A DNA stretch of 64,000 bases from Trypanosoma brucei (GCA_000002445.1 CP000070.1:1376001-1440000), one strand, 5' to 3'. Shown: positions 37,045 to 64,000, numbered from the stretch's first letter. Notes: generated from the sequence alone by a model not told the origin. Translations and numbers: made by a program.

Positions 37045-39285
37045 ATGGAAACACAGGTACCTCAGAATGTTATGGAGGATGCCATTGCGGTGTGGAACCG
37101 TTTGCAATGTTGGGGAAACGCTAGCAACTATCTTCTGGCGTTGAATAACCCGTGCATGCAGCACCAAAAGCATGGCGTAACAAAATGGGATCCCTACTCG
37201 ATACGTCTTGCAAGGCGCGTCGTTGCGGTGGTGGAGCGGCTTGACAACCACAGAGAGAAGTCTCTGGGGTTAGGCGCCACACCACGTGAAAAGTTACTGG
37301 CACTGGCTGAAGTTGTGCGGTTGTGTTTGGAATCGTTTGACCCTCTGGGAACTCCGTTGGTGCAGGGGGCAGCATTTCCCTTCAAAACACCGTCATCATT
37401 CCTCTCGCCATCGCCTCCCGTTGAGTGGGAAAGAGCTGTTGATAAGCGAGTTGTGAGTGGTACCATGATCATGGAGGGGCTACACATCCTCACTTATCCC
37501 AGTGTGCAACTGAGAATTGAAGCAAGTGTTGAGCAACTGCTGCAACACATTATGGAAGAGTTTAACGGTGGAAGCAAAAGGACGATGAGACACTCACCGG
37601 AGGAGTTGCGAGCGCTACGAGCAACCACCATGCTTCTGGAGGATTTCGATGCTTTGTATAAGCGTATTGTATGCGTGTTTCCGTGTGTTCGAATGATGGG
37701 ATCGCCGCATATTCCTGTTGCTCTGTTACCTATCGTAATTAAATTGTACTACAAAATGGCAGAATGGGTGCGAGACGCAGAGGTCACTGGGGAATTGAAC
37801 AGCTTCGCTCAGATAACGGTATTCAAGAAGAAGAAGTTGTTCGTGAAGATGCGTCGGGGGGATAAGAATGTACCTTGGGGACTGCAGTTTAATGATGAGG
37901 GAAGAGTGGTACAAGTCAACCCATCTGTGCGTTCCGGTTCCCACGCCGCTGAGGTGTTGCATGGTTTGACACAATTCTTCAAGAAGGGTTTGTCGATAGT
38001 TGAACTGAATTCACAACCGGTTAGCTTTGCAAATTTGACTGCAAAGCAGGCGACAGACAAGCTTCACTTTTGGACAATTGATGATTCTCGTCTGTCCCTT
38101 ACAATGCAAGACGACCACACGACTCCTCCTTTACTTGAGCAACTCGCCTTTTTTGTGGTGCCAGGCGCTAAAAAACAGTGTGGAACACTACGTGATGGAG
38201 ATGATACGTGTGCGACGCTCGTCCTCCATAGGGAACTCTGCGGAATATCATGGGACATCCGCCTCACCTCGGAGCTGTGTGTAGTGGATGTACCCACCAG
38301 CATTCTCTCTAAGGAGGCGGCAACTTTCTTCAAAACTCACCACAAGCAGCTGCGCATTGGGGCTATAAATGGTGTTAAAGTGACGAGAGCGTATCAAGTA
38401 GAAGCACTGAGTCAGTTCGTCAACACGATCGTGATTGATTTTTACAAAGTCCCACCCCCAGAGACGGTACCTGCACAAGTAAAACCGAAACGGGTCCCTG
38501 CCCTGAAGAGTGATACGAAAAATACACCCTCTCAACATACCTCTGTGGTTGTGACTGCTACTGCAGTAGCTGCTCCAGAAACCGTGAAGCGCATTGCGAA
38601 CGATGGCAAGGAGCAGCAACTGAGGGAGGTGCAAACATCAAAAAAGAAGATTGAAGATTCATCTCCACTTGATAAGGCAGGCGGTAAATCCAACAGTACA
38701 ACTGCTATTGTCCATGCAAAGGAGGCACCACTCGTACTGGTTTCCACCGTGGCTGAGAAATTGAGGAGTATCGCGAGAGCAGGAAGCATTCCGGGGAAAA
38801 ATGGTGCCAACGGTTTTTTGGAGGATGCTGAAAGAAGAGCAGTAAGCAAGAACGATGAGTACCGCTCTGCAACGAAACAAAATGAGGTGCGAGGCAACCT
38901 TGACGGTGATGTGACGACTTCTCTTACAGACACAGTGATGGTGTTGGATATGGATGGCGCGGAGCCACTTACTTTCCCCAACAATGTTACAATAAATATG
39001 TTGACACCTGAGGAGATGGTGGTGCAGCGACCATCATGCGAAAAGAAGTGGGGATTCTCCCTTGAAACGGAAGGAATGTACCCTAAAAAGACCATTCACA
39101 TGTCTGGACTTCCGCGTATGCTGGATGAACAATGGCATCACCCGTTCAGCAAACTGTTTCGTTCACGTAAAGGTGAATGGCGCATTGCTAGTGTGAACGG
39201 GACCCCGGCGTCACAGTTGCCCGAAGTAATTGACGTAATGAAACATGCTTTGAAGATGCAAATTAAGTTCATTAGACGATGGTAG
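37045..39285 (+). CDS. Hypothetical protein with three putative PDZ-like modules
   Basis: ATG at 37045, immediately after an A13 run. Three segments with PDZ-like patterns: WGLQFNDEGRVVQVNPSV...GLSIVELNSQPV, ISWDIRLTSELCVVDV...LRIGAINGVKV, and WGFSLETEGMY...EWRIASVNGTP. This is pattern recognition only. Confidence 0.55.
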   Translation: METQVPQNVMEDAIAVWNRLQCWGNASNYLLALNNPCMQHQKHGVTKWDPYSIRLARRVVAVVERLDNHREKSLGLGATPREKLLALAEVVRLCLESFDPLGTPLVQGAAFPFKTPSSFLSPSPPVEWERAVDKRVVSGTMIMEGLHILTYPSVQLRIEASVEQLLQHIMEEFNGGSKRTMRHSPEELRALRATTMLLEDFDALYKRIVCVFPCVRMMGSPHIPVALLPIVIKLYYKMAEWVRDAEVTGELNSFAQITVFKKKKLFVKMRRGDKNVPWGLQFNDEGRVVQVNPSVRSGSHAAEVLHGLTQFFKKGLSIVELNSQPVSFANLTAKQATDKLHFWTIDDSRLSLTMQDDHTTPPLLEQLAFFVVPGAKKQCGTLRDGDDTCATLVLHRELCGISWDIRLTSELCVVDVPTSILSKEAATFFKTHHKQLRIGAINGVKVTRAYQVEALSQFVNTIVIDFYKVPPPETVPAQVKPKRVPALKSDTKNTPSQHTSVVVTATAVAAPETVKRIANDGKEQQLREVQTSKKKIEDSSPLDKAGGKSNSTTAIVHAKEAPLVLVSTVAEKLRSIARAGSIPGKNGANGFLEDAERRAVSKNDEYRSATKQNEVRGNLDGDVTTSLTDTVMVLDMDGAEPLTFPNNVTINMLTPEEMVVQRPSCEKKWGFSLETEGMYPKKTIHMSGLPRMLDEQWHHPFSKLFRSRKGEWRIASVNGTPASQLPEVIDVMKHALKMQIKFIRRW

Positions 39286-39980
39286 CGTTTCTACCGGAGC
39301 AACCATTCTTCATCGTCGCATCCCTAAAAAGTTAACACAACTTTTTTTTCTTTGTCTACTGCGTTTGGGAGTGCGGGGCATCGAACTATCGAAAGCGGTA
39401 AAGGTATCAGGGAGGTCTAAGGAGCTCTTTTCCATTTCGTTTTTTACTGCTTTGCTGGATTTATTGTTCCTCCACGCCGTTTTGGAAATAAAGTGCAGTA
39501 AAAGAGGAGAGGCAGAAGCTTGTGTGTGTGGGGCCCCTAAAATGTGAGACATGTTTGAGCTTGTCCGTGCTCCCGTTATTATGAACAGAATATGCTTGAG
39601 CAGCGGTGTATGGGGATGGAAAATAGTGTGTGGAGCCCCCACTAATTTTGTGGGAATCGTTCGCAGTGGCGTATCCTCTTTTCCAGCTATCTTTTTTACT
39701 TGTTTTTAGTACATCTACGTGGTTAAGTGATATAACATGTACTGTCTCCCCCTTAATATCTTCTTCGTGAGTAACCCCGCGGTTCTCACATATGACTTTT
39801 CGTGTATATCTCCTTCACCTCCCCTCTTCTTTGTTGATGATGCATCATGCGTGAGATACATATATATATTGGTTGGTGGGGGAATAAAAGAAAAAGAGAG
39901 ACTGAAGTCACTACGATTGGATACATCAATAGTGTGAAGTGAGGGTAGTTTTACTCATATTACCTTTGAGTGCTCGTCGA

Positions 39981-42296
39981 ATGCCCATTTCGCCCTTGGC
40001 CTTAACGTGGGTGACCGCCCACTTGAAACGGCGAGGTTTGCCGTGTAATATTCCGGGTGTTACGGCGGCTGAAGTCTGTTCTGAAGAGGAACCGAAGCCG
40101 GCTGCCGAGCCACAACACGAGGCAAAACCTCTCTCGCCTGATGAGCTTCTTCAGGCGCTGGGTCATTGCTTCACTTCACAACCGCCCAAGAAGGAAATGA
40201 CTAGTAATCAAAATCTCGTAAAGAACCCTAATGGCTTAGCTGAACATGAAACATCTCTTAGTCCGCAGCACAGATCAACCCCACAACGTGTTGCATCTGG
40301 TATTGTTAAACTAGTGGAACAACATGAAGAGCGGTCAGCCGCCACCAAAGGTACCACACAGTCATTGTTGCTATTAAACACTGTTTTGACCGCATGTATG
40401 CGACACGCACTTCGTTATAGTCGGTTGGATGCCTCTAAAGGTGAAGATGTAACGGCTAGTGGAGGTGATGGGGCGAGTACAGTTTCACCTTCGCAACAAA
40501 TAGCGTTTCCCTGGTCAGCGGACAGGGCGGCGAATCACTTATTGCATGTGTTTAGTGACGATGCTGTGCAGAAACAACTGCGTACTAGATTGTGGAAAAT
40601 CGTATCGAAAGAACATAAACAAATTGTCGGGGATGCTACGAAGTTGTTTCGTAGCTTACCCATTGATGGTAGCGGCGCCATCAATTTTGGGGAAGGCACC
40701 AGTGTTGCGGAGGAGGAACTGAAGAGGATGTTTTACATTCCGGAAAGTACCGTTGTTGCTACCTACGACGCCATTCGGAAATTATACAACGCCGAGGAGC
40801 CTACTCTTATCCTCTCTGATGCGTGGTCGAGTGGTGTCAATGGCGGGGAAGTATCACTACTAAGTGAATGCCATTTCGTTTATGAAGTATCCTCCCAGCA
40901 CCTTGCTGACTTACTAATGCAGGAGGTGCGGGCAAATGCCATGAAAGAGGAAAAAACGAAGGCGGAGAACTGCGAAGATCTCGGAGCCGCTTTGCAGCAA
41001 CCATACTCAAAGTTTACTTCGCAATTTTGCACTCTTTTGATGGAAATGAGTCGGGTGCGGATGGCAGCGGCGGTTCTTATGCAGTTTGAGATCCTCGCGC
41101 GTCGAATCGCTCTTTTAGCTAAAGGACCAACGGTAAATCAACAACGAGGATCGTGTGATACCTTTGTTGATTTGGGTGTAGCAGTTGCAGCGCAAGAACT
41201 CTGCACGCTGGCCGTGACTTCATCATCACGAGTATTGGAAACTGCACTTCACAAAAAGCGTTTTACAACTCTATTCCGCGTTACAGTAGGCGAGTCGCCG
41301 TCTTTAACCTCTCGTGGCGATCAACGAAAAAGCTCTAATGATGAGCAGAACGGTGCTGTTGTTACCGGTCCACTGCCCACACTCGGCTCCGCTTTTGCGC
41401 TTCTTTCATTGGGATCACCAATTAAGAAGGTAGCAGCGGTGGAACGGGCGAAGGCAAGAGCTTCTTCAGAGGTTGCTCTTGCTGCCAATTCTACGGATGT
41501 TCTTGGCGATTCTGGAAGCTGTGAGCACAACAACTCTTCTGTTGGTCCTGGAGATCCGTCGGGCGTTAGGTCTGTGGATTGTGCGGCAACATACGGTGCG
41601 TTCATGCAAACCATTATGAAAGCCGCTGGTGCTACAAATAGCTGCGCTACACTGGATGGGAAGCGCTGCAAAGGCAAAGCAAGACACACCACAAGTACGG
41701 AAGGTGCCCCTTCTGGTACGAGTGGCGGAATTCAGCAGCATCGGAACGAGCAGACAGAGCCGAGTGCCACATGGAAGTTTCGGTGTTGCCGGATGCAACG
41801 CGATAATGTGTTGGACGCGCTGGAGGCGATTCCCTGCGCTGAGAAGGATGCAAAAGTGCAGTTACTTAGGTCGTCAACGGACATTCCATGGCCTTTCACA
41901 TTGGATGCAATACCTGCTGATGGTGGTAGAAGCAACCTTGATTGTGGGGGCGGTAACTGTGGAAGTTCGAATTCATCCACCCTCTTGCAGGCAACTAGTG
42001 GTTTCACATCCACTGTGACTGATATGACAGTGCGGATGAAATTTAACGAATCCTGGTTTCCCCCTACGGAGCGTATGCACACTTCTGCTTGTACTGCACA
42101 CGATGGCGGAGGGACGACAACAACTCATGGTACTGGTTTTACTCCCATGGACTTTCAGCACGCCTCACAACTGCAGCGCGTCCTGGCCTTCAACGATGGT
42201 CGTTTTTTATTTATGAATGGTTGTCCTGCGAGTAAAGTTAAACCTTTGAATCGCCTCGCGCGGGAGTCGCTGAAACTGGTGGTACGCTTTCGCTGA
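39981..42296 (+). CDS. Hypothetical protein
   Basis: The track start at 39939 is GTG, and the first ATG is at 39981 (MPISPLAL). 771 aa on the same strand with coding-like composition. No recognisable domain. Confidence 0.5.
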   Translation: MPISPLALTWVTAHLKRRGLPCNIPGVTAAEVCSEEEPKPAAEPQHEAKPLSPDELLQALGHCFTSQPPKKEMTSNQNLVKNPNGLAEHETSLSPQHRSTPQRVASGIVKLVEQHEERSAATKGTTQSLLLLNTVLTACMRHALRYSRLDASKGEDVTASGGDGASTVSPSQQIAFPWSADRAANHLLHVFSDDAVQKQLRTRLWKIVSKEHKQIVGDATKLFRSLPIDGSGAINFGEGTSVAEEELKRMFYIPESTVVATYDAIRKLYNAEEPTLILSDAWSSGVNGGEVSLLSECHFVYEVSSQHLADLLMQEVRANAMKEEKTKAENCEDLGAALQQPYSKFTSQFCTLLMEMSRVRMAAAVLMQFEILARRIALLAKGPTVNQQRGSCDTFVDLGVAVAAQELCTLAVTSSSRVLETALHKKRFTTLFRVTVGESPSLTSRGDQRKSSNDEQNGAVVTGPLPTLGSAFALLSLGSPIKKVAAVERAKARASSEVALAANSTDVLGDSGSCEHNNSSVGPGDPSGVRSVDCAATYGAFMQTIMKAAGATNSCATLDGKRCKGKARHTTSTEGAPSGTSGGIQQHRNEQTEPSATWKFRCCRMQRDNVLDALEAIPCAEKDAKVQLLRSSTDIPWPFTLDAIPADGGRSNLDCGGGNCGSSNSSTLLQATSGFTSTVTDMTVRMKFNESWFPPTERMHTSACTAHDGGGTTTTHGTGFTPMDFQHASQLQRVLAFNDGRFLFMNGCPASKVKPLNRLARESLKLVVRFR

Positions 42297-42633: not shown

Positions 42634-43325
42634 TGTGTGCTTTTGTTGCGCACCTGTAGTCTGAGAAAAGAGATCAAATCTTTTGAACAACAGAAGTTTT
42701 TAAAGAAATACAGCAGACAAGGGATTTATAGGTTTATAGCAAATAGGAAAAAGGAAAAACAAGTCGAGGCAAAACCTAAGGGAAGGGACGAAGGACTGAT
42801 AAGTGGAAACACAAAGAAGAGTAGTAGGAGCAAAACAAAGAACAGCAGAGGCAACAATTAGCCATCGAAGCCCAGTGGGTGAAGGTAACTGAAATAATCA
42901 AGGAAGGGATAGGGTAGGTAAGAGAGGGGGGAAAGCACAAAAAAGGAGAGAAAATAGAGAAGCGGGTGGTTAATTGCCTGCTTGTGTACACGTGTGTGTC
43001 AGACTAGCTGCAATCCTTTCGGTGGAAACAATTTGGAGAACAGGGCGAGATAAGTCTAGCGAAATATCTGTCTGTTACAGAAACTCAGCAAGGTAGTGGC
43101 AAGCGGAAGAGAAGAAGGGGAGGAAAGAAAAAGGAAGCAGCACCAGATATAAACGTCTACATATATATTAGACATACGTTATACGTGTTGACGGGAGGGT
43201 AAACAGGGAAGCGGAAGATAGTTATTCTCACCTGCAAGAACTAATATACCCATATTCATTTTGAGTGCAATTGTCACGCTTGAAACGAAAACAACTATAC
43301 ACATATACATCCTTAATCGCCAATC

Positions 43326-44822
43326 ATGGGAGGAGGTTCATCCGTTGAAGACAAGCGCTACTCCCGGCTGTTCCAGGAGGGTCTCAAGGCGCTTCATGAG
43401 GGACGCTTTACATATGCTGAGATTTACTTTGATCAGGCCATTGAGAAACATGAGGGTTATCCATTCTGGCAGCGCCTTGACGAAATGGTAGAATGGGAAC
43501 GAAAGGGAAACACCGGTAAGCGAAAGGGAGAGGAGCAAAATGAAAAAGATCAGTGGGCGAAAGAAACAAAGCCTGAGACAGGTGGCGGTGAGGGAGCAGG
43601 AGAAGATGGCGCTGAAATGGATGATTTGGGAGGTGAATCCGATGACACTGGTGTTCTTGTGATTCCTCTCGATCAACGGGTATTTCACGTGTTGGAGTAC
43701 CTTCAGTTGCGCACCGACATTTCCGTCGCTTATTTGCTAGCTGAACGCTACGAAGAGGCACACGAGCACCTCCAATACGTCACGTCGCACACTCATGTGC
43801 TTTTGAAGTGTTTGCGCATTGCCCGGCAGAGTAATATGTCAGAGGAATCAGGCGGAGAAGGCGGTGACACGAATCCCCTTGAGCATGTTGGTGTAGTGGA
43901 GCGGCGGTTCCGTGCAGGTTTGATGGGCATGGAAGTGGAAGTGGAAGGTATCCTCGACGCCTTTGAACAATATCTTCGCCTGCACTGGTTCTCTGGAATT
44001 GCAAACACTGTTTACATCGCCTTTGAGCGGTTCAAGGGAGGGCAGGGTGATAAGAAGCGCAAGCGTGAGCTTGACGCCGTAGTTGTGACATGTGAAACGG
44101 CCAAGTTAGAACTTCACAAACTGGTGTCCCGCCGTGCTAAGAGCTTAACGAACAGTGTGTTGATTGAGTTCCTTGAGAAGCTCATTAATGATATGGACAG
44201 CAGCGCCTCGGACTCCGAGGATGATGGAAATGCAAACGGCGGCCGCAGTGGTGGTCCCGCCGCCAAGGGCAGAAGAAAGTCGGACAACCGCGAGGATGGC
44301 GACAAGGAAGAACTTGAGAACTTCCCATTCAGTGCACGACTTCAGATGCTTTACGAGCGTCGTCTGTTGTATCGGGGCATGCCCGCCCCCATGCAAGGTG
44401 CTGCCTTGCGTTACCTGCCTTGGATGGATGAAGATATCCGTCGTGTTGTTCCCGGTACAAACTACAACCTGGAGATTCAATGTGGTATGATTGATGATAG
44501 GCGTAAGAAGCAACTCCAAAAGAAATCTCTCAAGCACACAGTACAGAAGCGGTTTGACTTCAACGACAGGGTGCTATTCAACAAGAGTATGGATGAAGAA
44601 AATGCACTGCTGTTATTTCCATTACTTCTTGTTGAAGCTGATGTGCAATTAGAACTTGGTGCTGCCACGAAAGGCATTAAAGCGCTAGATATGGTCGAGA
44701 AATTGTCTACGCAATTATACGGCAGGCAGTCGCTTGAGCAACAGAGTCTCATGCGCCGTGTGTTGGAGACCCGTAAACGCGGTGGTGCTCTTTTCATGAT
44801 GTTTGATGACCAATTGAACTAA
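43326..44822 (+). CDS. Hypothetical acidic protein with N-terminal myristoylation consensus (MGGGSS)
   Basis: ATG at 43326. G2/S6 consensus. Glu/Asp-rich stretches. 498 aa. Confidence 0.6.
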   Translation: MGGGSSVEDKRYSRLFQEGLKALHEGRFTYAEIYFDQAIEKHEGYPFWQRLDEMVEWERKGNTGKRKGEEQNEKDQWAKETKPETGGGEGAGEDGAEMDDLGGESDDTGVLVIPLDQRVFHVLEYLQLRTDISVAYLLAERYEEAHEHLQYVTSHTHVLLKCLRIARQSNMSEESGGEGGDTNPLEHVGVVERRFRAGLMGMEVEVEGILDAFEQYLRLHWFSGIANTVYIAFERFKGGQGDKKRKRELDAVVVTCETAKLELHKLVSRRAKSLTNSVLIEFLEKLINDMDSSASDSEDDGNANGGRSGGPAAKGRRKSDNREDGDKEELENFPFSARLQMLYERRLLYRGMPAPMQGAALRYLPWMDEDIRRVVPGTNYNLEIQCGMIDDRRKKQLQKKSLKHTVQKRFDFNDRVLFNKSMDEENALLLFPLLLVEADVQLELGAATKGIKALDMVEKLSTQLYGRQSLEQQSLMRRVLETRKRGGALFMMFDDQLN

Positions 44823-47800
44823 ATGCAAAGGAAGCAAAGAAGAAAATAGGATGGGTGGATGTGAGAAAAGAAAAAAAGGAAAAAGAAATGGAAGCGTCAA
44901 GGGTTTAGAGTGTTTACGCTTTCTTCTATGTTTTTGTATGTGTGGGAAAGGGGGGGGAATAAGTAACAGAGGTGAAGAAACATACGCTACTGGTGCAATT
45001 TTTTTTTCTTTTTGTACACCAAAAAGAGGCGATAGCAGGAAGTACAGGGAAGAAAAGGGGGAAAAAGGCGAGACAAAACAAGATACCAAAGGAGAGATTG
45101 AACTAATGGAAAGGGAGAGAAAAGATGTTTATCCCCCCCACCCCAATTCGTTCATTTGATTGTTTCTTTTTATGTGTGCGCGTGTGTGTAAATATATATA
45201 TATATATATATTACAGGGGGCGGTAGGAGGGAAAGAAAAAGGCAAAACAAATGCAAAAGAAAAAGGGAATTAAAGGATTTGGGAGAAAAAGGAATAGGAG
45301 TAATAAAGAATAAAAGAAGTGGGAGCAAGTACAAAACAAAGCAAAGCAAAACACAAAAACAAAACAGGTGTAAAGGATAAAGCAAACAAACAACCAAATA
45401 AAAGACAATAAGTGACATGCAAGCGATGCGGTACAAATCAAATATGTGGGGGGTCCGCTGAATGGCTCTGTGGCTAACACGTTTGAGGAGCGGGCGGAAA
45501 TATTAACGGCAGGAGTAATTTTTTTAAAAAAAATGATTCGTATGTAAGTGAAAAAGTTATGAGAAGTAAACTGACAAATGTTTTTTGTCTGTGTTTTAAC
45601 GTTGTTGTGTACATTCATGTAAAGCGAATATATATATATATATATGTGTGTGTGTGAGAGAGAGAGAGAGAGAGTAAGTCAATGAGTGTTTTTCTGTCTG
45701 AAGGTAGGAAAATGATAATTTTTTTTCTCTTGTTAAAGCAACGTTTGTATGTCGTGTTTGCCTTTTTGTTAGCAATTTCTTTTCCTGTTGTCTTTTCCCC
45801 CCTTTACTTGCTATTTCCCTTAATATCTTTACTCGCTTTTGTTCATTCTAATTTCCCTTTTCTTTTTTTTTATGTATCTTTTATCTTTTCTGTTTTTTGA
45901 ATGTAACTCAGATATGCCACTGCTTCTGGTGGAAGTAACATAAAAGTGAACAACCGTTTTTGTTTTTTTTTGTTCTTAACATTCTCTCAGCGCCAAAAAC
46001 GCGAGGGAAGAAATACTACCAAAGAATGTGTGCAACTAAATTTGAAGTTTCTTTAAAAAAACAAAAATACAAAAAAACAAAAGAGAAAAGAGGGAAAAAA
46101 GAAAAATTATCGGAGGGAGTTTGCGGTCGCGAGTATTGTCACCCGTTTTCCTTCAGAGAAGTGTTTTAAGTGTAGGAATGCATGTGTGGGGGATTTTTTT
46201 TTTTTTTTTGTGAGGACGAGGAGCAAAGTTCACACTTAAATCAGAAGTGTAAAAGAAAAGGGAGAAAATAATGATAATGCTGATGATGATGATAATAAAA
46301 GAAAAGAGAAGAGGAGAGCGCAAACAAAAAGGAGGAAGAGACAAAGTATATAAATCAATAAATAAAAAGTTGAAGATATGAGGCTAAGAGGCAGAAAGCA
46401 ACATGCAGTAATGATTGTATATGCGCAGGAGATAAAAAGTGGTGCTGCCGCAGCCCTTTTTTTTTTTTCAAATTTAATCGTTTGTTCATCCGAGAGTGAA
46501 CAAATGTTTGAACGTATTTCCACCTGATGCCCCTCCCCCCCTCAACACACACACACACACCACCTAATTTCTTGCTTTTTTTTTTGAAACTATTTATTTA
46601 TTTTTTTACTCGGTTCTCTGTTCCTCATTCACCCTAGCCGTCTCATCTCTGCGCGGTACATACACGTATAAATGTAAATAATATATATATATATATATGT
46701 TTATTTATGCGTGTGTATTACGTTATATAATATTATATAACATTATCACATGATATGGTTATTATTGTTGTTGTTACTTATTATTATCATCGCCGTGGAC
46801 ATGCAATTTATGGTCCCTTTATTCTCACATTTTTCTCTCCGTCCCACCACCTGCGCATATATATATAAATATAAATAAATAAATATATATTTATTTATTT
46901 ATTTTCACCCTCCTTTCTTTTGGCGTATTGTTGATGCTGCCGCTGATTTTTATCTCTTTCATTGACTTGAACTGTTGTGTGCCCCTCCCCCTCCCCCTCC
47001 CCCGTACGCACCGCCTCAAAACAAAAAAATTTGTGCAGTGAAAAGAACTGAACTGAAATGAAATGAACTGAAATGAAATGAACTGAACTGAAATGAAATG
47101 AACTGAAATGAAAAATGGAAAAAGAGAAGGAATATACAAATGAAAGTCGAGGAGGAGAATGAAATCAGTTAAATGTTTGGGACAATTTCTTATTTTTCCG
47201 TTTCGTTTAGTTCGTTCCGAGGCCTCATTTATGCGGCGTTACGTCCTTTTGTCTTCGTTTTGTTTTTGTTTCAATTTGATTTGTTGTGTGTTTTATTTCC
47301 CATCAATCGCGTTCTCGTCACCACCACTACAACCACCAGTTTTCTCTGGCGTGTTTTTTTTTCTTTCTTTCTCTCTTAATTTCCTTTTTCTTCTTTTTTT
47401 CTCTCTTTTTTTTTTCTTTTTGGGACGAAAGGACAAATACGCTACCACTTAACGTCGCTCACGATAGTGGACGCAATGGAATACGTGTATTTGATTTGTT
47501 TTTTTTGTTTTTTTCTCTTCACTTTTCTGTTCTCGGTGTTGTGTCAAACTTTTTTTCTTTTTTTTTACTTTTTTTAAATATATATATATATATATATTTA
47601 TATATGTTTATGTGTTTTGGTGACAGAAGCAAAGGTGTTTAAAAGAAGCAAGAGAGAGAGAGAGATTAAAAAAAAAAATGAATATTTGAGATATGTTGCC
47701 TTTTCATACACATTAATATTCATATGTGTATTATATTCTCCTTTTTCTTCTTTTTTTTTCCAACGCCTTTTCCCATTTCTTAACCGTTCTTGCATCTTAC

Positions 47801-50800
47801 AATACCTCTTGATATTACTTTGTTCATGCACTTACTCGCTTATTTTAACTTCTTTCATATTATTCACAATAACATTCCCTTTACTTTTCCCTTTGTTTTT
47901 TTTTCCTTCATCTTACTTTATCTCTTTTTTTTTCTTTTTATTTTCCGTTTCACTCCTCCTCTCTTTTCTCCAGTTCCGCATAACTTTCCATGCCCGTGTG
48001 GAAACCCTCGAAGGCAAGTCTGCGTGAGTGAGCTTGTGATATTATTTGTGATTTAAATAAATAAATAAATAAATATATTTAAAATTGATGTTTTGTAATG
48101 TTCTGCCCATTTGTTTTTTTGTATGTTTTTTTTTTCCATTTGGTTCAATAACTAAAAACACCAAAAAAAAATTTAATTATAATATAAATATATATATATA
48201 TATTAATATTTGTTGTGGCTGGGAACACATCCACAGCGGCACCAACACCAGCAACGGTTCCTGGGGGAAGGCTTTTTTTTTAAATGTTTTAAATATTTTA
48301 AATATTTTATTATTATTTTAAATGTCAAAACGAAAAAAAACCCAAAAAAGAGAGAATTTTAAAAAAAATGTATAATCAAAAAAGAACGAGAAAAGGATGG
48401 GAAAAAAGACGGAGGATAGAAAAAAAAATTAAAAAGAAAAAAAAAAGACACACTTACAAGAGGCTAACGGAAAGGCATAAAATATGTGTGAAGGATGTGA
48501 ATACCCGCCTTCTTACAGGAAAAAAAAGAAAGAAAGAAAGAAAAAATATTTCCTTCATCTTTTTTTTAAAAATATTATGTCGTGATGAAGGTTTCAATTT
48601 ATTTTATATCTTTTAGCTTTCTTTTTTTCTTTTTTTTTATCTTTTCAGTTCTATCTCCTCCGTTTTTTTTTTTTTGCCGTGTCGAGTTTGGTGTTGTTTT
48701 AAAGGTCGCGATCATTTATGTCTTTTTGTTTGTTTGTTTGTTTTCTATTTTTTTAATTTGTTTGTTTTCCTCCCAATTCACTGTTGCTTTTGCTCTTACT
48801 TTTCCTTTTTGTTTGGTCATTCTTTCTGTTTTTTCCCCCTTTCTTTTGTTATTGTTGATGGATGAGCGTACAAAATCTTTTTTTTTTATTCCGTGTTCAT
48901 ATCATTTTATTTTATTTTATTGCTTGTTCAATTTTTGTGTTTTCTTTTGTTTAGTTTTTTTTTTTTGCTTTTTATGATTTTTTTGTATGTTTCGTTTCAT
49001 GTTTTGTTGTGCATCATTTTTCCTTCTTTTTTTTGTGTTGTTATTACTCATTTTCTGTTTTTTTTTGTTAACAATAAAAAAAGAAAGAGAAAACAAATAA
49101 AAAAAACACAAAAAGTGGAGAAAGTGAAGGTGACATTTAATCGTGTGGACACGGAAAGAAAATAAAAAGAAGGCAAGCGAGAGAACAAACAAAGGGAGAA
49201 AACAACACCACGAAAATAATAATAATAATAATAATAATAAGTAATTTATAAATCAAAACCATCAACAACACTAAAAAGCAAACGAAACGAAACGAATTGA
49301 TGATGACGACGACAACACGCAACATAATATTAGAAAAAGAAGAGGATGGGAGGGGGGAGAGGGGAAAGAAATAACTAAAATAAACAAAAAAACAAAAAAG
49401 GGATTCAATGGAAGATTAAAAAAAAAAAAATAGAAATAAATGCAACAACACTCGAGAAATAAATAAAAAAAAAGAGGGAGGAGGAAAAAAAAAGGTTTTG
49501 CCTGAATGTGTATTTGGAAAGGGAAGGCTATTTATGAAGGGAATTATTATTATGTAGACTCGGCAATAAGTGAAAGTAATGGCTTTTTTTTCTTTTTCTT
49601 TTTTCTTTTTGATCATAACGCACGCTTTTCTCATCCTTTTCTTTTTCTTTCCTTCTCTTTTTTTTATTTTGTTGTTTTGGTTTCTGAGCTGTAGTTTTCG
49701 CACATGTATGATTAATTTAACTGAGTGAAGAAAGGGAAAGTGAACGTAATATATTAAATGCATATACAGCACATGTGCATATTCACATATATATATATAT
49801 ATATATATATATTTCTAACACATGTGCGTGTTTCGGTGGAAGGAATTAATATATAAAGAGGAAAGGAATAACATTATATGATACAGTGTGAAATAAAACT
49901 AATGAAGTGATATGAAAATTTTCTTTTTTCCTTTTTGTTGTTGGCGCTGAAGCAATGATAAAAAAGAAAAGGGGTTGAAAATAATGGGATTTTGAGATGA
50001 ACCAAACCCAGAGGGATGAGGTAACTTTCGTTAAAAGAAAGAGAGAAGGGAAGATATTATGTGTATGAATGAAACTCTTTTCGTTTATTTGTATGCGCGG
50101 CAACGGTGTGGCGGGATGAGAAATTAAAATTAGTGAATCAGGAGAGGATATTATGCATCACAGGGGAATACAAGCATATATAATATATATATATATATAT
50201 AAACATATAGATAGCAATTTTCATTTTATATTTTAAAGAAAAGAGAAGTGGAAAATAAAGGAGCTTTAAGAAGAGATTTCTTTCCCCCTTTAAACCCCTC
50301 TTTCCCTCTCTTTCTGTCCTCCATTCCCCGACCCCCCGTGGCGTAGGGTTCTTTTTCTTTTTTTCTTTTTTTCTTTTTTTGCACTGACTGTCATTATTAC
50401 CATTACCATTATTATTATTATTATTGTTATTTTAATGTTTTCATTATTACCAAAAAAAAAAAACAACAAATTCTCCTCACCCGCCCCTCTAGCCGGCCCT
50501 TCCACTCTCATTTTTCTTTTTCTTTTTTGTTTTTTTCTTTTTGTATCCCTGCGGAGCAAAATCAGAGGGTCACAAAAGAAAAATACCCGGAGCCACTTAT
50601 ATGCACGTATGCATTTTTTAATTAAAAAATATATATATGTATATATGTATTGGTGTATCAAGTGCGTATATGTATGTATTTATTTCTCTTAATCGTGTTT
50701 CATTATAAGAGGATAAACAGCCAAATAAACAAAAGAAAAGGAAAGAAAAGAAAAAAAAGAAAAGCAAATGCGCATCATATATGTATGTAAAAAAAACAAA

Positions 50801-52285
50801 TAGATAAATATATGTGTGATGTGTTTCAGGGCAAGGGTCCTGCGGATTGAAAGTGTTTTTCGTTGTTTCTTTACTATTAATATTATTAATTTTCTTTACT
50901 TTTTTTTCTTTTTTGATCCCTTTTCTTTTTCTTTTTTTCTTTTATTTTCCTCCTTCATTCGATTTGCTTCTTTTTTTTTTAAAAAAAAACTAATGCGCAC
51001 TGCAGTGAGACAGCGATTGGTGGCGATACGTGACTTATACAAATATGTGATGATATGAAACGAAATGAAAGAGAAAAAAAAGGGTGAAAAGGAGAATGGG
51101 AAAAATATTTAAAAAAACCAAAACAGCAAAAAAAATTGAAAAAAAAAGAAAAAATGAGGCAATATTGTCATTATTACTGTTATTATTATTATTGTTATCG
51201 ACGTTTTGGTTACATGTGCAGGGCCTTATTGCAATGAGTTGTGAGACTTTCGATTCCCTTTTTCCCTTTCCCCTTTTGGCTTTTTTTTTTCCTCCCCCCC
51301 TCTCCACCTTTCTCTCTAGTTTTCCTTCCTTACAGACCTCCCTCACAGTTTTTCAGCTTCCCAATTTTACTCTTTCGTTTTTGGTTTGAGCTTTCTTCGT
51401 AATTTGTTTGTTTGTTTATTTCTTTGTTTGTGTTTCGGTTGGATGGGGGAAGGTGGGAAGAACAACAAAAATTAAAAGAAGGGATTGAAAAGAAAGCAAA
51501 CAAACCGATCGAAAGAGAAGAAACTTCAAACACGGAGAAAATAGAGAAGGCGAAAAGAAATAGTTTCGTAGAGTTTTGTTTTTGCGTCGCACCTCACGCA
51601 CGAACTTGTGAGTGTGTATCACCCGTCTACTGAACCGTGTGTTTGGACAACGTTTGCTCGGCACTTCGAAGCGAAGAAACGCTAACAAGCAAATAAACAA
51701 ACAATGAAAAAACATCATCAAGTAATCGTTCGGTTTTTTTTTTAGCGTTTGCCTATTTCGTCCTCCTCCCCCCCCCCTGTGCATCGTCACCTGTAACGGA
51801 TGGATGTGTAATGCTTATGCGAAGATGATCCTTCCCTCTTTTGACTTATATTACTGTGTTTGATTCTACTCTCAACTTACTACTGTCTTGTTTTTCCTAT
51901 TCAATTCTTCTTTATTTGCCTTTCCTCTTGATCGTTTAATCCTTTATAGTGTTTTCTCTCTCTCTCTCTCTATTCCTTTCCTTTTCTGTTGTCTGTTTGC
52001 TTGCGCGAAGGAAGTCACAGGTTTGTGTTTCATTGTAGGACCTCACGTATAATACTGAAAGGACTCAAAAAAAAAAAATTGTTTCCATAAGCAACAGAAG
52101 CGCAACAAAGTTAAGGAAAGTGCCTTCTGACATTTTGTTGTTGCACATCGCCTACGCATATCGTTTTGTTTATCCAAGAAAATACGCTAATTTAGTCGAC
52201 ATCCTTTCTACTGCAAGCTGTGAGGCAAAATCCAGTGATTTTCCTCTTGTTTGGTGTTGACGTTTGCGAAGGGAAGTAGCGTGTT
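44823..52285. repeat. About 7.5-kb ORF-free, AT-rich, low-complexity island dense in microsatellites and homopolymer runs
   Basis: No ORF longer than about 150 codons on either strand. (TA)n at about 45190, 45625, 46685, 47580, 49790 and 50180. (TG)n(GA)n at 45640-45680. (CA)n at 46545. (CCCCT)n at 46981-47010. A GAACT/GAAAT pentamer array at 47041-47110. (AAT)n at 49205-49235. (ATT)n at 50395-50435. Long strand-asymmetric polyT and polyA blocks. Confidence 0.8.
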
Positions 52286-53836
52286 ATGTTGCGCGAAAGG
52301 AGTTGCTCATGCAGCTGCACTTCAGAGGCATGCGGGCGCCTGCATTCGTGTTCCTGCACATTCAGCAGTGACAGCTGTGGTGAGAGGAGGCCAAATAGAA
52401 TCCGACAGAGAGCTTTGGATGTATCTGCTTATATGTCCTCGCAACCTTTGTCAATGTCTTCACGGCATAATACAGATTGTAGTTGCTCATGTTCCTGCGA
52501 TTGCAGCTGTAGCTCCTCTTGCAGCTGTAGTACTGGTTGTGACTCTTCTCGCAGTTGCAGTTGCAGTTGCAGTTGCAGTTGTTGTCGTTCTGCATACTCC
52601 TCTGCATGCCGTACGTGCGGAAGGGGGAATGATGACCAATCCGATGCGGAACGTGCACCGCATTATCCCAGCTGCCAGTACAGTGAAGATTTTTTGTCTG
52701 TTGCCCCACTTCTAATTCGGTTTGGTGCCTTCCCACCGCCCCGACCCCCGGAGGCTCCGCCTGTGCGTATGTTTCCAACGCCATCAGGTCTCCTCCCACC
52801 ACCAGAGCCGCTGAGAGCGTCAACAACTACTACAGAAACAACTCAGTCACTGGTGTCCACTCGTAGCGCAGAGGGGTCTGACATCATCACCACCGTTTCA
52901 TCGGGCGAACTGCGGGCGGCAGCGGAGGTGACTTCGATGCACCGGTCAATTGGGATGCAAACAGAAATTGAGAGTCGCGAACGAGGAGCGTCACCGATAC
53001 GAAAAGCAAAAACTGATGTGGGCACAAATACGGAAATGACGTTGGAGTTACTGGACCAGCAGCAGGCCACGCTTCAGCAACAAACGATGATACTGCACCA
53101 GCACATGGAGCGGTGTGTCATTCTTGAAAGGCAGCGATATGAGGTGGATTGTGAACATGCGGCGTTCTGCGAGGATGTGAGACGTTGGCAAGAGTTGCAA
53201 AGGGAGACTGCGGTCGCGCAGTTTATTGTGGCGGTGGAAAAGAGCTACAGCGATGTGAAAGTGCAAGAGGAAGAGGGACGCGCGCTCCTCAAAACTTTCA
53301 TGGACTTTTCAAGCCAGTCAGTGATTTCACTCCAGCAGAATTGCATTGATCAAGTGCAACATCAGATGACATTTGCTCATCAACAGCGAACGATTCTTGA
53401 AGGAAAACATTACGACGTTATTGTTGATGAATTGTGGCATCGACTTGCTGTGGTGGAAATGGAGGAGGAATCACGTCGGAATCTCCATGTCCTATATGAT
53501 ACCATTTCTGACATGCGGCGCGCGCGGGAGCGAATGACAGCCGCTGAGGCAGAGGTTGAACATGAGAAGGAAATTACGGCGTCGGTGCGGAGGGATTTGC
53601 AAGACGTGCTGCAGCGTGAGAAGGAATTGCAGCTGAAATATTTGTATATCCTACGGGTGCCCACAACAACCATTATTTCCCGTGATTACAAAAACAACGA
53701 TGGCCCTGTGGGAGGTCATGATGAGTGGGACGATGACATGCCAGTGCATGTGCGGTTTTCCCGTGCGCACCGAGCGGCAGTAGAAGCTGTTAGCGCAAAG
53801 CGTCGTTGCTCCCTTGAACTTAAATGCTTTCTGTAA
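52286..53836 (+). CDS. Hypothetical protein: Cys/Ser-rich low-complexity N-terminus (CSCSCS) and coiled-coil-prone C-terminal half
   Basis: ATG at 52286. N-terminal 110 aa encoded by TGCAGT-like hexamer repeats (52490-52600). The C-terminal half is rich in E/Q/R/L heptad-like sequence (QQQATLQQQTMILHQHMERCVILERQRYE...). The true start could be a downstream Met. Confidence 0.5.
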   Translation: MLRERSCSCSCTSEACGRLHSCSCTFSSDSCGERRPNRIRQRALDVSAYMSSQPLSMSSRHNTDCSCSCSCDCSCSSSCSCSTGCDSSRSCSCSCSCSCCRSAYSSACRTCGRGNDDQSDAERAPHYPSCQYSEDFLSVAPLLIRFGAFPPPRPPEAPPVRMFPTPSGLLPPPEPLRASTTTTETTQSLVSTRSAEGSDIITTVSSGELRAAAEVTSMHRSIGMQTEIESRERGASPIRKAKTDVGTNTEMTLELLDQQQATLQQQTMILHQHMERCVILERQRYEVDCEHAAFCEDVRRWQELQRETAVAQFIVAVEKSYSDVKVQEEEGRALLKTFMDFSSQSVISLQQNCIDQVQHQMTFAHQQRTILEGKHYDVIVDELWHRLAVVEMEEESRRNLHVLYDTISDMRRARERMTAAEAEVEHEKEITASVRRDLQDVLQREKELQLKYLYILRVPTTTIISRDYKNNDGPVGGHDEWDDDMPVHVRFSRAHRAAVEAVSAKRRCSLELKCFL

Positions 53837-54059
53837 ATTCCCCATTGAATACAGCTTAATCCACAGATACGAACATGAGACCAGGGGGAGGAGGGGGGGG
53901 GGGCGTCATACGAGTTGTCAGACGTGGTTTGGGTGACTTACATATCATTACTTTTTCCCTAAGGAAGAGGATTCCCTAATATACATACGTACATCTCCAG
54001 TTTTATTGTTTCTTGTGAATTTGTGTCTTTCAACACAAACTCTTTGAGGAATAGGGTTT

Positions 54060-63280: not shown

Positions 63281-64000
63281 AGCCACCGTTCCTTTTGATT
63301 CCTTTTATTATATTATATTTCGTTTTGTTTTTGTTTTTCACATCAGTGCCTTTGCTTACTATCTTCGGTATTTTCCTCTCAGCTCCGCCTCTTTTTTTCT
63401 TTTTTTCCTTTTTTTCCCCGTTTCTGTTTCTGTTTCGGCTCTTTCTTTTATGTTTAAAAAAAAAAAGACCATTTGCTCTTAATAATGACAATTGTTGTTA
63501 TTATTTGTCTTTATTTCCGTTGTATCGCCTTTTGTATTCCTGTGTTTATGACAACCGAAACCGTTTCAGCGGAAGGGTGAGATAAAAAAAAAGGGAGGGG
63601 AAATATGCGGGATCCCTCAATAGAAAACAGAAAAAAGGAAAGGAAAGGAAAGGAAGCAGATAAGAATGTGGAAGATTAAGGAAGGAGGGGGGGGAGATAT
63701 AATGGAGGTGTGGGGGAACAAATGGAAGGGTTTTCTTTACTTTTAAAAAACAAAAGAAAAGAAAACAAAAAAAGATGGAAAAGGGACAAAAAAAGAAAAA
63801 AAGAAATACTGCTCGAGAGGAAGAGGAGAAGAACTAACACACACACACACACACACATACATATATACATACATACATATATATATATATATAGATTACA
63901 CGGAAAAAAAAAGAAGAAAGGAGCGGCATATTTGGTTTTTATCAATCAGTTGCCGTGTGCTGTGGATTAATAAGCGGGTGCGATCGCGTGTGTCGGAAAA

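What the first reader, a model, noticed from the sequence alone, without database searches (positions are those of the whole stretch)
44823..52285. 7.5-kb ORF-free, microsatellite-dense AT-rich island inside a unidirectional gene array
Flanking genes are spaced 0.5-1.8 kb apart. This gap is 7.5 kb, has no ORF over about 150 codons on either strand, and is saturated with (TA)n, (AAT)n, (CCCCT)n and GAAMT pentamer arrays plus strand-asymmetric homopolymers. Candidate explanations are a very long 3'UTR for the 43326 gene or 5'UTR for the 52286 gene, a lncRNA locus, an internal transcription termination/initiation boundary between two head-to-tail PTUs, or a collapsed or degenerate repeat region.
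Basis: seen in the sequence. Interest (0 to 1): 0.55.

Follow-up and report, generated by a model that had tools for sequence, protein, structure and literature searches.

The report
Long non-coding tail after trypanosome CARP3
The 7.5-kb gene-free, AT-rich, repeat-laden stretch is real, but it is most likely the very long 3' untranslated region of the Trypanosoma brucei signalling gene CARP3, a feature already known for other regulatory genes of this parasite, and only its first 0.8 kb could be shown to be in the CARP3 mRNA.

Summary
The window is T. brucei TREU927 chromosome 7 (Tb927_07_v4:1,376,001-1,440,000). The gap lies between CARP3 (Tb927.7.5340) and the next gene, presumed Tb927.7.5350.

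The gap is 7,463 bp, against 162-1,774 bp for the other spacers. GC is 0.33, against 0.42 for other spacers and 0.51 for coding sequence. Simple repeats cover 11.7%, against 1.5% expected. No open frame exceeds chance, and there are no tRNA, Rfam, Pfam or cross-species coding signals.

- **Not an assembly artefact.** T. b. gambiense has a colinear 6.7-kb version, and T. vivax and T. conorhini keep a 3.2-4.7 kb spacer at the same place.
- **No transcription-unit boundary or independent transcript on record.** Published procyclic maps list neither here.
- **Not a long 5'UTR.** RNA-seq-like contigs place the downstream mRNA start near 52.0 kb.
- **3'UTR evidence.** The same kind of contig shows at least 833 nt of the gap joined to the CARP3 coding sequence.

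Best reading: a long, possibly alternatively processed CARP3 3'UTR, with a pyrimidine-tract-free proximal 2.4 kb and a distal 4.7 kb carrying 17 tracts. The true 3' end was not determined. Interest is low.

The parts
42660..43325 (+). CARP3 5'UTR (about 666 nt). The trans-splice acceptor is the AG at 42658-42659, downstream of a pyrimidine-rich stretch and an (AT)13 repeat.
   Evidence: Logan contig L009 (run ERR7929162) starts with TATTG, the 3' end of the spliced leader as I recall it, joined exactly after that AG. Contigs from five further runs of the same series (ERR7929156-64) start raggedly at 42669-42760, as RNA-seq assemblies do.
43326..44822 (+). CARP3 coding sequence (Tb927.7.5340; 498 aa; N-terminal MGGG myristoylation site).
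   Evidence: Exact protein match to AAZ12598 of T. brucei TREU927. CARP3 is given as Tb927.7.5340, 498 aa, in PMC3811416 and PMC9481589.
44823..45655 (+). The part of the gap shown to be contiguous with the CARP3 coding sequence in RNA-derived contigs, so the 3'UTR is at least 833 nt.
   Evidence: Four independent contigs (L009-L012) run from the 5'UTR through the coding sequence. All stop at 45655 inside the (AT)n(GT)n(GA)n microsatellite, with no poly(A) tail, which indicates an assembly break and not a transcript end.
44823..47243 (+). Proximal segment: largely purine-rich (A/G), with no polypyrimidine tract of 25 nt or more on the sense strand. Candidate core 3'UTR.
   Evidence: Tract scan and composition bins. 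The lowest brucei/gambiense substitution rate is in the first 1 kb (0.78 per 100 bp). Nine of the 10 small ORFs that are identical in T. b. gambiense lie here.
47039..47113 (+).
   Evidence: TRF: period 5, 15 copies, 85% matches; family D10.
47244..51987 (+). Distal segment: 17 sense-strand polypyrimidine tracts of 25-97 nt, most followed by an AG within 100 nt, alternating with poly-purine blocks. These are potential internal trans-splicing and polyadenylation signals.
   Evidence: Tract scan: 8.6% of gap bases lie in such tracts, against 1.8% in the other spacers. U12 runs occur at 4 loci and U6CU6 at 5 positions, against 0.7 and 0.1 positions expected.
48134..48940 (.). About 0.8 kb present in TREU927 but missing from the T. 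b. gambiense DAL972 alignment (length polymorphism).
   Evidence: The megablast alignment of L007 jumps from window 48133 to 48941. Only 311 of the 1,000 bases in 47823-48822 are covered.
51858..52073 (+). Distal end of the gap present in steady-state RNA. It contains the polypyrimidine tract 51952-51987 and candidate AG acceptors at about 52009-52061 for the downstream gene. The coupled poly(A) site of the upstream transcript is predicted at about 51.85-51.95 kb.
   Evidence: RNA contig L016 spans 51858-53892 and L015 spans 52073-53865. The sequence was read. The median distance from a splice acceptor back to the upstream poly(A) site is 142 nt (Kolev 2010). The poly(A) position is an inference.
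52286..53836 (+). Downstream gene (presumed Tb927.7.5350, hypothetical conserved, Q57ZF4). The conserved part starts near Met160 (52763).
   Evidence: Exact match to AAZ12599. The gene identifier is inferred from position between Tb927.7.5340 and Tb927.7.5380. Orthologue homology starts at residues 122-230. The gene caller picks a 357-aa product on the RNA contigs.

Best explanation
The island is non-coding sequence inside a single RNA polymerase II polycistronic unit of T. brucei chromosome 7. It is transcribed by read-through and belongs to the 3' untranslated region of CARP3 (Tb927.7.5340), a regulator of flagellar adenylate cyclases.

**Shown**
- No coding capacity and no RNA gene.
- The first 833 nt are physically joined to the CARP3 coding sequence in RNA-derived contigs.
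- The downstream gene's mRNA begins only near 52.0 kb.
- An unusually long spacer at this position is kept in other Trypanosoma species, although its sequence is not.

**Inferred**
- In trypanosomes the poly(A) site of one mRNA is set about 140 nt upstream of the next trans-splice site that is used.
- If none of the 17 internal pyrimidine tracts is used, CARP3 mRNA ends near 51.9 kb. That gives a 3'UTR of about 7 kb and an mRNA of about 9.2 kb.
- If the first strong tracts at 47.24-47.42 kb are used, a shorter mRNA results, with a 3'UTR of about 2.4 kb (about 4.6 kb in all). The distal 4.7 kb would then be released as spliced-leader-capped, polyadenylated fragments derived from the UTR.
- Both forms may coexist. 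This has been described for RBP10 and DRBD12 mRNAs, where the protein DRBD18 masks internal tracts.
- The AT-rich, microsatellite-rich make-up is what weakly constrained trypanosome UTR sequence looks like. Its likely role is to carry many binding sites for post-transcriptional control of CARP3.
For: **Identity.** Exact protein matches place the window in TREU927 chromosome 7. CARP3 is Tb927.7.5340. Window coordinates are tied to Tb927_07_v4 through Tb927.7.5380.

**Non-coding.**
- ORF lengths are at chance level.
- The 10 longest gap ORFs have no Pfam match above the curated cut-off.
- No tRNA gene.
- Rfam gives only far sub-threshold low-complexity hits, mostly to microRNA families.
- Six-frame comparison among the gaps of five Trypanosoma species gives nothing beyond a few 15-40-residue alignments of 23-27 bits.

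**RNA evidence.**
- Contig L009 carries a spliced-leader remnant at the CARP3 acceptor site.
- Four contigs extend 833 nt into the gap and break at a microsatellite.
- Downstream-gene contigs start at 51858 and 52073.

**Single transcription unit.** Kolev 2010 Table S14 lists Tb927.7.4970-6000 as one unit. Table S7 has no novel transcript on chromosome 7 between 1,335,059 and 1,502,945.

**Conservation of the layout.** The order CARP3, long spacer, downstream-gene orthologue, HlyIII gene holds in several species:
- T. vivax: spacer of about 4.7 kb or less
- T. conorhini: 3.19 kb, where neighbouring spacers are 0.3-0.8 kb
- T. b. gambiense: 6.73 kb

**Precedent.** In the same window DRBD12 (Tb927.7.5380) has a transcript at 1436813-1445584, with a 3'UTR of about 6.3 kb, and an mRNA of about 8.4 kb (PMC9380746). 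RBP10 has a 3'UTR reported as 7.3 kb and, elsewhere in the same paper, 8.5 kb, with many internal pyrimidine tracts. U12 and U6CU6 motifs of that kind are enriched in the gap.
Against: - No read or contig links CARP3 to anything beyond 45655. Continuity across the remaining 6.6 kb is inferred.
- Kolev 2010 reports 3'UTRs only up to about 6,000 nt in procyclic forms. A 7-kb CARP3 UTR was therefore probably not called there, and Tb927.7.5340 is not in their list of alternatively processed genes.
- The distal 4.7 kb carries many strong-looking splice signals. It diverges between subspecies at least as fast as other spacers and holds a 0.8-kb indel, so much of it may have no sequence-specific function.
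- Searches for RNA contigs covering the mid and distal gap found none. These were weak tests.
- C-terminally tagged CARP3 made with pMOTag vectors is expressed. As I understand those vectors, they replace the native 3'UTR, so the native UTR would not be needed for expression.
Confidence: 0.68

Rival explanations
1. The distal part of the gap (about 47.3-51.9 kb) encodes one or more independent long non-coding RNAs, trans-spliced at internal pyrimidine-tract/AG sites and polyadenylated. They would have their own function, as grumpy does upstream of RBP7. CARP3 itself would have only a 3'UTR of about 2.4 kb.
For: There are 17 long sense-strand pyrimidine tracts, most with a nearby AG, starting at 47244. 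None occurs in the first 2.4 kb. T. brucei lncRNAs are described as mostly intergenic, less GC-rich than mRNAs and carrying ordinary splicing and polyadenylation motifs, with 1,428 catalogued (PMC9200285). Kolev 2010 found 394 genes whose 3'UTRs are processed into a shorter mRNA plus a non-coding transcript. The 3'UTR ceiling of about 6,000 nt in that study argues against a called 7-kb UTR.
Against: No novel transcript is listed in this interval in procyclic forms. Tb927.7.5340 is not in the alternative-processing table. The supplement held for the Nanopore direct-RNA paper shows no coordinate beginning 1421-1426, though the remaining 1.42 Mb prefixes were not searched and it is not known that the file lists coordinates. 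There is no conserved sequence or structure: no Rfam match, no cross-species blocks and fast divergence between subspecies.
Confidence: 0.17
2. The gap is a head-to-tail boundary between two transcription units. Pol II would terminate after CARP3 and start again before the downstream gene, with the matching chromatin marks.
For: It is exceptionally long and AT-rich compared with neighbouring spacers. Internal start sites do exist elsewhere in T. brucei (Kolev 2010 Table S14, entries of type 'Internal').
Against: Table S14 lists Tb927.7.4970 to Tb927.7.6000 as one unit with no internal start. That list was built from 5'-triphosphate RNA-seq and agrees with published histone-mark sites. Head-to-tail boundaries often coincide with Pol I or Pol III genes (PMC8559703), and none is present here. 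RNA contigs continue from CARP3 into the gap and from the distal gap into the downstream gene.
Confidence: 0.05
3. The gap is a very long 5'UTR of the downstream gene, which would be trans-spliced far upstream.
For: One RNA contig (L016) extends 150-200 nt upstream of the predicted acceptor, through the pyrimidine tract.
Against: Contigs of this gene from two runs begin at 51858 and 52073, not further upstream. A strong pyrimidine tract (51952-51987) followed by several AGs lies right there. Published 5'UTRs have a median of 130 nt and a maximum of about 2,500 nt. The gene is absent from the tables of mis-annotated or undetected transcripts.
Confidence: 0.03
4. The gap is the relic of a lost gene or mobile element, or an assembly artefact such as a collapsed repeat.
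For: It has low complexity and differs in length between subspecies. T. brucei has lost another gene nearby (the PALP gene).
Against: The orthologous spacers in T. vivax and T. conorhini contain no gene, and six-frame comparisons give nothing beyond very short alignments. No Pfam match reaches a curated cut-off. No sequence is shared with the rest of the window, and there are no long-period arrays. Two other assemblies (T. b. gambiense; T. equiperdum for the first 2 kb) are colinear.
Confidence: 0.04

Closest known systems
Very long 3'UTRs of T. brucei regulatory genes: RBP10 (Tb927.8.2780 from memory; 7.3-8.5 kb) and DRBD12 (Tb927.7.5380; about 6.3 kb), whose processing depends on DRBD18 (PMC9380746, PMC8982893)
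   Same: Multi-kilobase, ORF-free, low-GC sequence directly downstream of a regulatory gene, on the same strand within a polycistron. It is studded with internal polypyrimidine tracts, including U12 and U6CU6. DRBD12 lies only 9 kb further along this same window.
   Different: For RBP10 and DRBD12 the full-length mRNA was shown by Northern blot and RNA-seq. For CARP3 only the first 0.83 kb is shown here. DRBD18 binding or dependence is unknown. The proximal 2.4 kb without such tracts, followed by a tract-dense distal part, suggests a shorter form may be prominent.
3'UTR-internal alternative processing that gives a short mRNA plus a non-coding transcript (Kolev et al. 2010, Table S3: 394 genes, e.g. 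Tb927.4.4370)
   Same: The architecture predicts it: strong internal tract/AG sites downstream of a tract-free proximal UTR.
   Different: Tb927.7.5340 is not in that table, and no novel transcript was called in the interval.
T. brucei intergenic lncRNAs such as grumpy (Guegan et al. 2022, PMC9200285)
   Same: Intergenic position, low GC, ordinary trans-splicing and polyadenylation motifs.
   Different: No independent transcript is documented here. No embedded snoRNA or other Rfam family, and no conserved structure or sequence.
Head-to-tail Pol II boundary regions (termination then start; Siegel 2009, Kolev 2010, PMC8559703)
   Same: A long non-coding interval between same-strand genes.
   Different: Not listed as an internal start site, no Pol III gene, and RNA continuity at both edges.

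Membership tests
Trypanosomatid long 3'UTR (RBP10/DRBD12 type) | Lies immediately downstream of a coding sequence, on the same strand, inside one polycistronic unit | tested here: met
   All large ORFs in the window are on the + strand. The unit Tb927.7.4970-6000 is listed as a single unit.
Trypanosomatid long 3'UTR (RBP10/DRBD12 type) | One continuous mature mRNA from the coding sequence to a poly(A) site at the far end | tested here: inconclusive
   Continuity is shown for 833 nt only. Contigs break at a microsatellite, and no contigs were recoverable for the rest.
Trypanosomatid long 3'UTR (RBP10/DRBD12 type) | Poly(A) site coupled about 140 nt upstream of the next gene's trans-splice site | tested here: inconclusive
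   The downstream gene's mRNA 5' end is at about 52.0 kb, and RNA is present from 51858. No poly(A)-tailed contig was seen. The coupling distance comes from Kolev 2010.
Trypanosomatid long 3'UTR (RBP10/DRBD12 type) | No protein-coding or structural RNA gene within it | tested here: met
Trypanosomatid long 3'UTR (RBP10/DRBD12 type) | Numerous internal polypyrimidine tracts (U12, U6CU6) | tested here: met
   17 tracts of 25 nt or more. U12 occurs at 4 loci and U6CU6 at 5 positions, far above expectation.
Trypanosomatid long 3'UTR (RBP10/DRBD12 type) | Binding by DRBD18, or dependence on it, to suppress internal processing | not testable with these tools
   The supplementary tables of PMC9380746 are not held. 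CARP3 is not mentioned in its main text.
Independent lncRNA locus | A transcript with its own spliced leader and poly(A) tail that does not include a neighbouring coding sequence | tested here: not met
   No novel transcript is listed on chromosome 7 between 1,335,059 and 1,502,945 in procyclic forms. The bloodstream-form and 2022 catalogues could not be checked.
Head-to-tail Pol II transcription-unit boundary | A mapped internal transcription start (5'-triphosphate RNA and histone-variant marks) | tested here: not met
   Not among the 'Internal' or other starts of Kolev 2010 Table S14.
Head-to-tail Pol II transcription-unit boundary | Frequent association with tRNA, snRNA or rRNA genes | tested here: not met
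   No tRNA gene and no Rfam family at gathering score.
Head-to-tail Pol II transcription-unit boundary | Enrichment of base J, H3.V and H4.V (termination marks) | not testable with these tools
Centromeric or satellite repeat array | Long tandem arrays of one AT-rich unit (T. brucei centromeric units are 147-177 bp, from memory) | tested here: not met
   The largest TRF period is 30 nt with 2.4 copies, and the longest array is 75 nt. The repeat finder returns only low-complexity families.
Degenerate protein-coding gene or retroposon relic | Residual homology detectable in translated, frameshift-tolerant comparison | tested here: not met
   Cross-species six-frame tblastn gives only 15-40-residue alignments of 23-27 bits. 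Pfam gives no match above a curated cut-off. No relative of the longest ORF exists among 1.84 billion representative proteins.

The most novel reading that the evidence does not exclude
The distal 4.7 kb, dense in pyrimidine tracts, is not simply UTR. It could be a dedicated processing platform that yields stage-specific non-coding RNAs capped with the spliced leader. Alternatively it could switch CARP3 between mRNAs of about 4.6 and 9.2 kb during the life cycle, tuning cAMP signalling and transmission through the tsetse fly. The conservation of spacer length across the genus without conservation of sequence would then reflect selection for this mechanism.
Probability: 0.15. Interest if true: 0.5.

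Novelty: new member of a known kind. Interest (0 to 1): 0.2.

Why it matters
CARP3 controls adenylate-cyclase abundance, social motility and colonisation of tsetse salivary glands (PMC9481589).

If its mRNA really carries a 3'UTR of up to 7 kb, it joins the small group of trypanosome regulators (RBP10, DRBD12) whose expression is governed by exceptionally long UTRs. Tagged or rescue constructs that swap the UTR may then miss part of its regulation.

Beyond that, the feature is an expected product of polycistronic transcription and does not challenge current models.

Tried and rejected
**1. Hidden gene: rejected.** ORF statistics, Pfam on the 10 longest ORFs, cross-species six-frame comparison and an HMMER scan of 1.84 billion representatives with the longest ORF found no credible signal.

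**2. RNA genes: none.** ARAGORN found nothing. Rfam found nothing at gathering score, and at E <= 1 only low-complexity hits far below threshold, mostly AT-palindrome matches to microRNA families.

**3. Phylogenetic footprinting: uninformative.** Sensitive blastn against the T. vivax, T. theileri, T. conorhini and T. rangeli spacers gave only low-complexity hits. The T. theileri and T. rangeli spacers contain runs of N, so their lengths are not reliable. The T. congolense locus could not be fetched.

**4. More RNA-contig evidence for the mid and distal gap: dead end.** Exact look-ups of 20 gap ORFs and one homology search (which returned only the T. b. gambiense 'hypothetical protein, unlikely') found no further contigs. 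These negatives are weak, because the assemblies are short, come from a different strain and break at microsatellites.

**5. Known 3'UTR motifs: no meaningful enrichment.** The RBP10 motif UAUUUUUU and PUF motifs are not enriched. The enrichment of (UAU)3 and U-rich motifs simply reflects the microsatellites.

**6. Literature for the CARP3 mRNA length.** No paper in the searchable library gives it. The supplements of the DRBD18, RBP10, grumpy and Siegel 2010 papers either are not held or do not list the gene. Kolev Tables S4 and S5 are truncated before chromosome 7.

**7. Dispersed repeat or retroposon: none.** No sequence is shared with the rest of the window.


Full report
**Where the window comes from**

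Six large ORFs were looked up by exact sequence. Five are identical to annotated proteins of Trypanosoma brucei brucei TREU927 chromosome 7 (AAZ12596 and AAZ12598-12601, on a contig of 2,205,233 bp).

The ORF at 43326-44822 (498 aa, starting MGGG) is CARP3, Tb927.7.5340. CARP3 is a myristoylated regulator of flagellar adenylate cyclases.

The YEATS protein at 33810 fits Tb927.7.5310. The RRM protein at 61481-63280 is Tb927.7.5380 (DRBD12). Kolev et al. 2010 give its coding sequence as 1,437,481-1,439,280 on Tb927_07_v4. The window is therefore Tb927_07_v4:1,376,001-1,440,000, and the gap is 1,420,823-1,428,285.

The ORF at 52286 is the next annotated gene, presumed Tb927.7.5350 (hypothetical, Q57ZF4).

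- No ORF of 150 codons or more lies between 44823 and 52285 on either strand.
- The longest open frame is 155 codons. Composition-preserving shuffles give 134 +/- 23.
- The gap is 7,463 bp. The other 16 spacers in the window are 162-1,774 bp.
- GC is 0.328, against 0.422 in other spacers and 0.512 in coding sequence.
- Homopolymers plus microsatellites cover 11.7% of the gap in 70 loci. A first-order Markov model predicts 1.5% and about 13 loci.
- Purine-rich and pyrimidine-rich blocks alternate along the strand.

**What it is not**

*A hidden gene.*
- The 10 longest ORFs have no Pfam match above the curated cut-off.
- The longest ORF has no relative among 1.84 billion representative proteins.
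- Six-frame comparison among the orthologous spacers of T. brucei, T. vivax, T. conorhini, T. rangeli and T. theileri gives only 15-40-residue alignments of 23-27 bits.
- The five small ORFs annotated in this spacer in T. b. gambiense are of the kind labelled 'hypothetical protein, unlikely'; the one retrieved carries that label.

*An RNA gene cluster.* There are no tRNA genes and no Rfam family at gathering score. At permissive thresholds Rfam gives only low-complexity matches far below threshold, mostly AT palindromes hitting microRNA models.

*A satellite, a centromere or a collapsed assembly.*
- The longest array is 75 nt, and all repeat families are low-complexity.
- Nothing in the gap is shared with the rest of the window.
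- The independent T. b. gambiense DAL972 assembly is colinear. It differs by microsatellite indels and by one block of about 0.8 kb (48134-48940) that is present only in TREU927.
- A T. equiperdum contig is colinear over the first 2 kb.

*A transcription-unit boundary, as far as published maps show.*
- Kolev et al. 2010 Table S14 combines 5'-triphosphate RNA-seq with published histone-mark sites. It lists one unit from Tb927.7.4970 to Tb927.7.6000, with no internal start.
- Head-to-tail boundaries often coincide with Pol I or Pol III genes. None is present here.

*An independent transcript, in procyclic forms.* Table S7 of the same study has no novel transcript on chromosome 7 between 1,335,059 and 1,502,945.

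**RNA evidence at the two edges**

Contigs from one sequencing series (runs ERR7929156-64) behave like RNA-seq assemblies. L009 begins with TATTG, which matches the 3' end of the spliced leader as I recall it. That sequence is joined exactly after the AG at 42658-42659, and the contigs from the five other runs start raggedly just downstream. This gives CARP3 a 5'UTR of about 666 nt.

Four of these contigs continue through the coding sequence and 833 nt into the gap. All stop at 45655 inside the (AT)n(GT)n(GA)n microsatellite and carry no poly(A) tail. That is an assembly break, so the 3'UTR is at least 833 nt.

At the other edge, contigs of the downstream gene start at 52073 (L015) and 51858 (L016). 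They bracket a 36-nt pyrimidine tract (51952-51987) followed by several AGs between about 52009 and 52061.

- The downstream gene therefore has an ordinary, short 5'UTR and does not own the gap.
- Some RNA is also present right up to its splice signal, as expected if an upstream transcript ends there.

**Comparative evidence**

The gene order CARP3, long spacer, downstream-gene orthologue, HlyIII gene, Tb927.7.5370 orthologue is conserved.

| Species | Spacer after CARP3 | Note |
|---|---|---|
| T. b. brucei TREU927 | 7.46 kb | GC 0.33 |
| T. b. gambiense | 6.73 kb | GC 0.33 |
| T. vivax | up to about 4.7 kb | measured to the first detectable homology |
| T. conorhini | 3.19 kb | neighbouring spacers are 0.3-0.8 kb |

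The T. theileri and T. rangeli spacers contain runs of N and cannot be measured.

There is no nucleotide conservation outside T. brucei. In T. vivax and T. conorhini the spacer is not AT-rich relative to their other spacers. Length at this position is conserved; sequence and composition are not.

Between T. b. brucei and T. b. gambiense, the first 1 kb after the stop codon is the most conserved part (0.78 substitutions per 100 bp). The rest runs at 1.3-2.8, similar to or above other spacers at 0.9-1.6.

**Internal architecture**

- The first 2.4 kb (44823-47243) is largely purine-rich and has no sense-strand pyrimidine tract of 25 nt or more.
- From 47244 to 51987 there are 17 such tracts (25-97 nt), most with an AG within 100 nt.
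- These tracts occupy 8.6% of gap bases, against 1.8% in the other spacers, which have 0-3 such tracts each.
- U12 and U6CU6 motifs are enriched.

These motifs are highlighted in the RBP10 3'UTR in the DRBD18 study. That study proposes that DRBD18 masks 3'UTR-internal tracts so that long UTRs are not cut up (PMC9380746).

**Most likely mechanism**

Polyadenylation in T. brucei is coupled to the next trans-splicing event that is used. The median distance from an acceptor back to the upstream poly(A) site is 142 nt.

- **Internal tracts ignored:** CARP3 mRNA should end near 51.85-51.95 kb, with a 3'UTR of about 7 kb and an mRNA of about 9.2 kb.
- **First strong tracts (47.24-47.42 kb) used:** the mRNA would be about 4.6 kb with a 3'UTR of about 2.4 kb. 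The distal sequence would be released as non-coding fragments that are capped with the spliced leader and polyadenylated.

Kolev et al. describe the second pattern for 394 genes. Very long UTRs have direct precedent. DRBD12, 9 kb downstream in this same window, has a 3'UTR of about 6.3 kb and an mRNA of about 8.4 kb. RBP10 has a 3'UTR reported as 7.3 kb and, elsewhere in the same paper, 8.5 kb.

I therefore read the island as the CARP3 3'UTR, long and possibly alternatively processed (confidence about 0.68).

Evidence that tempers the full-length version:
- Kolev et al. report 3'UTRs only up to about 6,000 nt in procyclic forms.
- The distal part evolves fast and tolerates a 0.8-kb indel.
- I could not recover RNA contigs from the middle of the gap. 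These were weak tests.

**Rivals**

| Reading | Probability | Main point |
|---|---|---|
| Independent lncRNA(s) in the distal part | 0.17 | The 2022 catalogue of 1,428 lncRNAs could not be consulted |
| Transcription-unit boundary | 0.05 | Not in published start-site maps |
| Long 5'UTR of the downstream gene | 0.03 | Its mRNA starts near 52.0 kb |
| Gene or element relic, or assembly artefact | 0.04 | No homology; other assemblies colinear |

**Novelty and interest**

A multi-kilobase, AT-rich, microsatellite-rich, ORF-free 3' region inside a polycistron is a known kind of feature in T. brucei. This one is not discussed in any paper I could search, so I file it as a new member of a known kind.

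Two modest points of interest remain. The owner gene is a key regulator of cAMP signalling and fly transmission. An unusually long spacer is also kept at this position across the genus without any sequence conservation. Interest: 0.2.

Noticed in passing
window 52286-52762 (N-terminal 159 codons of the 516-aa ORF): This Cys/Ser-rich part includes a (GCAGTT)5 hexamer array at 52551-52581. It is not conserved: homology with the T. vivax, T. theileri and T. conorhini orthologues starts at residues 122-230. Gene calling on RNA contigs picks Met160 (52763), giving 357 aa. T. b. gambiense has a 530-aa version with in-frame indels. The annotated start may be too far upstream, or this is a fast-evolving extension specific to T. 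brucei.
   Followed up: partly
window 61481-64000 and beyond the window end: DRBD12 (Tb927.7.5380) has a mapped transcript at Tb927_07_v4:1,436,813-1,445,584, which corresponds to window 60813 to about 69584. That gives a 5'UTR of about 668 nt and a 3'UTR of about 6.3 kb that runs off the window. It is a second very long UTR in the same neighbourhood.
   Followed up: partly
window 35799-37044, compared with L001:2269-3333, L004:20-1093 and L005:1225-3507: T. vivax, T. theileri, T. conorhini and T. rangeli carry a PALP-family (pyridoxal-phosphate enzyme) gene after the YEATS gene, ahead of the Tb927.7.5320 orthologue where that is present. T. conorhini and T. rangeli also carry a small CLN3-like ORF there. 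T. brucei has neither anywhere in the 64-kb window, nor in the T. b. gambiense locus, which suggests lineage-specific gene loss.
   Followed up: partly
L001:3334-6739 (T. vivax): No orthologue of the DUF7759/7761/7762 protein (window 37045-39285, presumed Tb927.7.5320) is detectable in T. vivax. A 3.4-kb spacer occupies its place.
   Followed up: no
window 39939-42296: The 785-aa translation from the GTG start is not in the protein collection, and T. b. gambiense annotates 771 aa. The real start codon is probably a downstream ATG.
   Followed up: no
window 31001-32000: There is a strong negative GC skew (-0.29) inside the C2/ankyrin gene at 30631-32757, with long antisense and alternative-frame ORFs (31044-31781 on the - strand, 245 aa; 31202-31981 on the + strand, 259 aa). 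This suggests a compositionally biased coding segment.
   Followed up: no
window 42660-43325: The CARP3 5'UTR is unusually long (about 666 nt, against a published median of 130 nt). By eye it is strongly purine-rich.
   Followed up: partly
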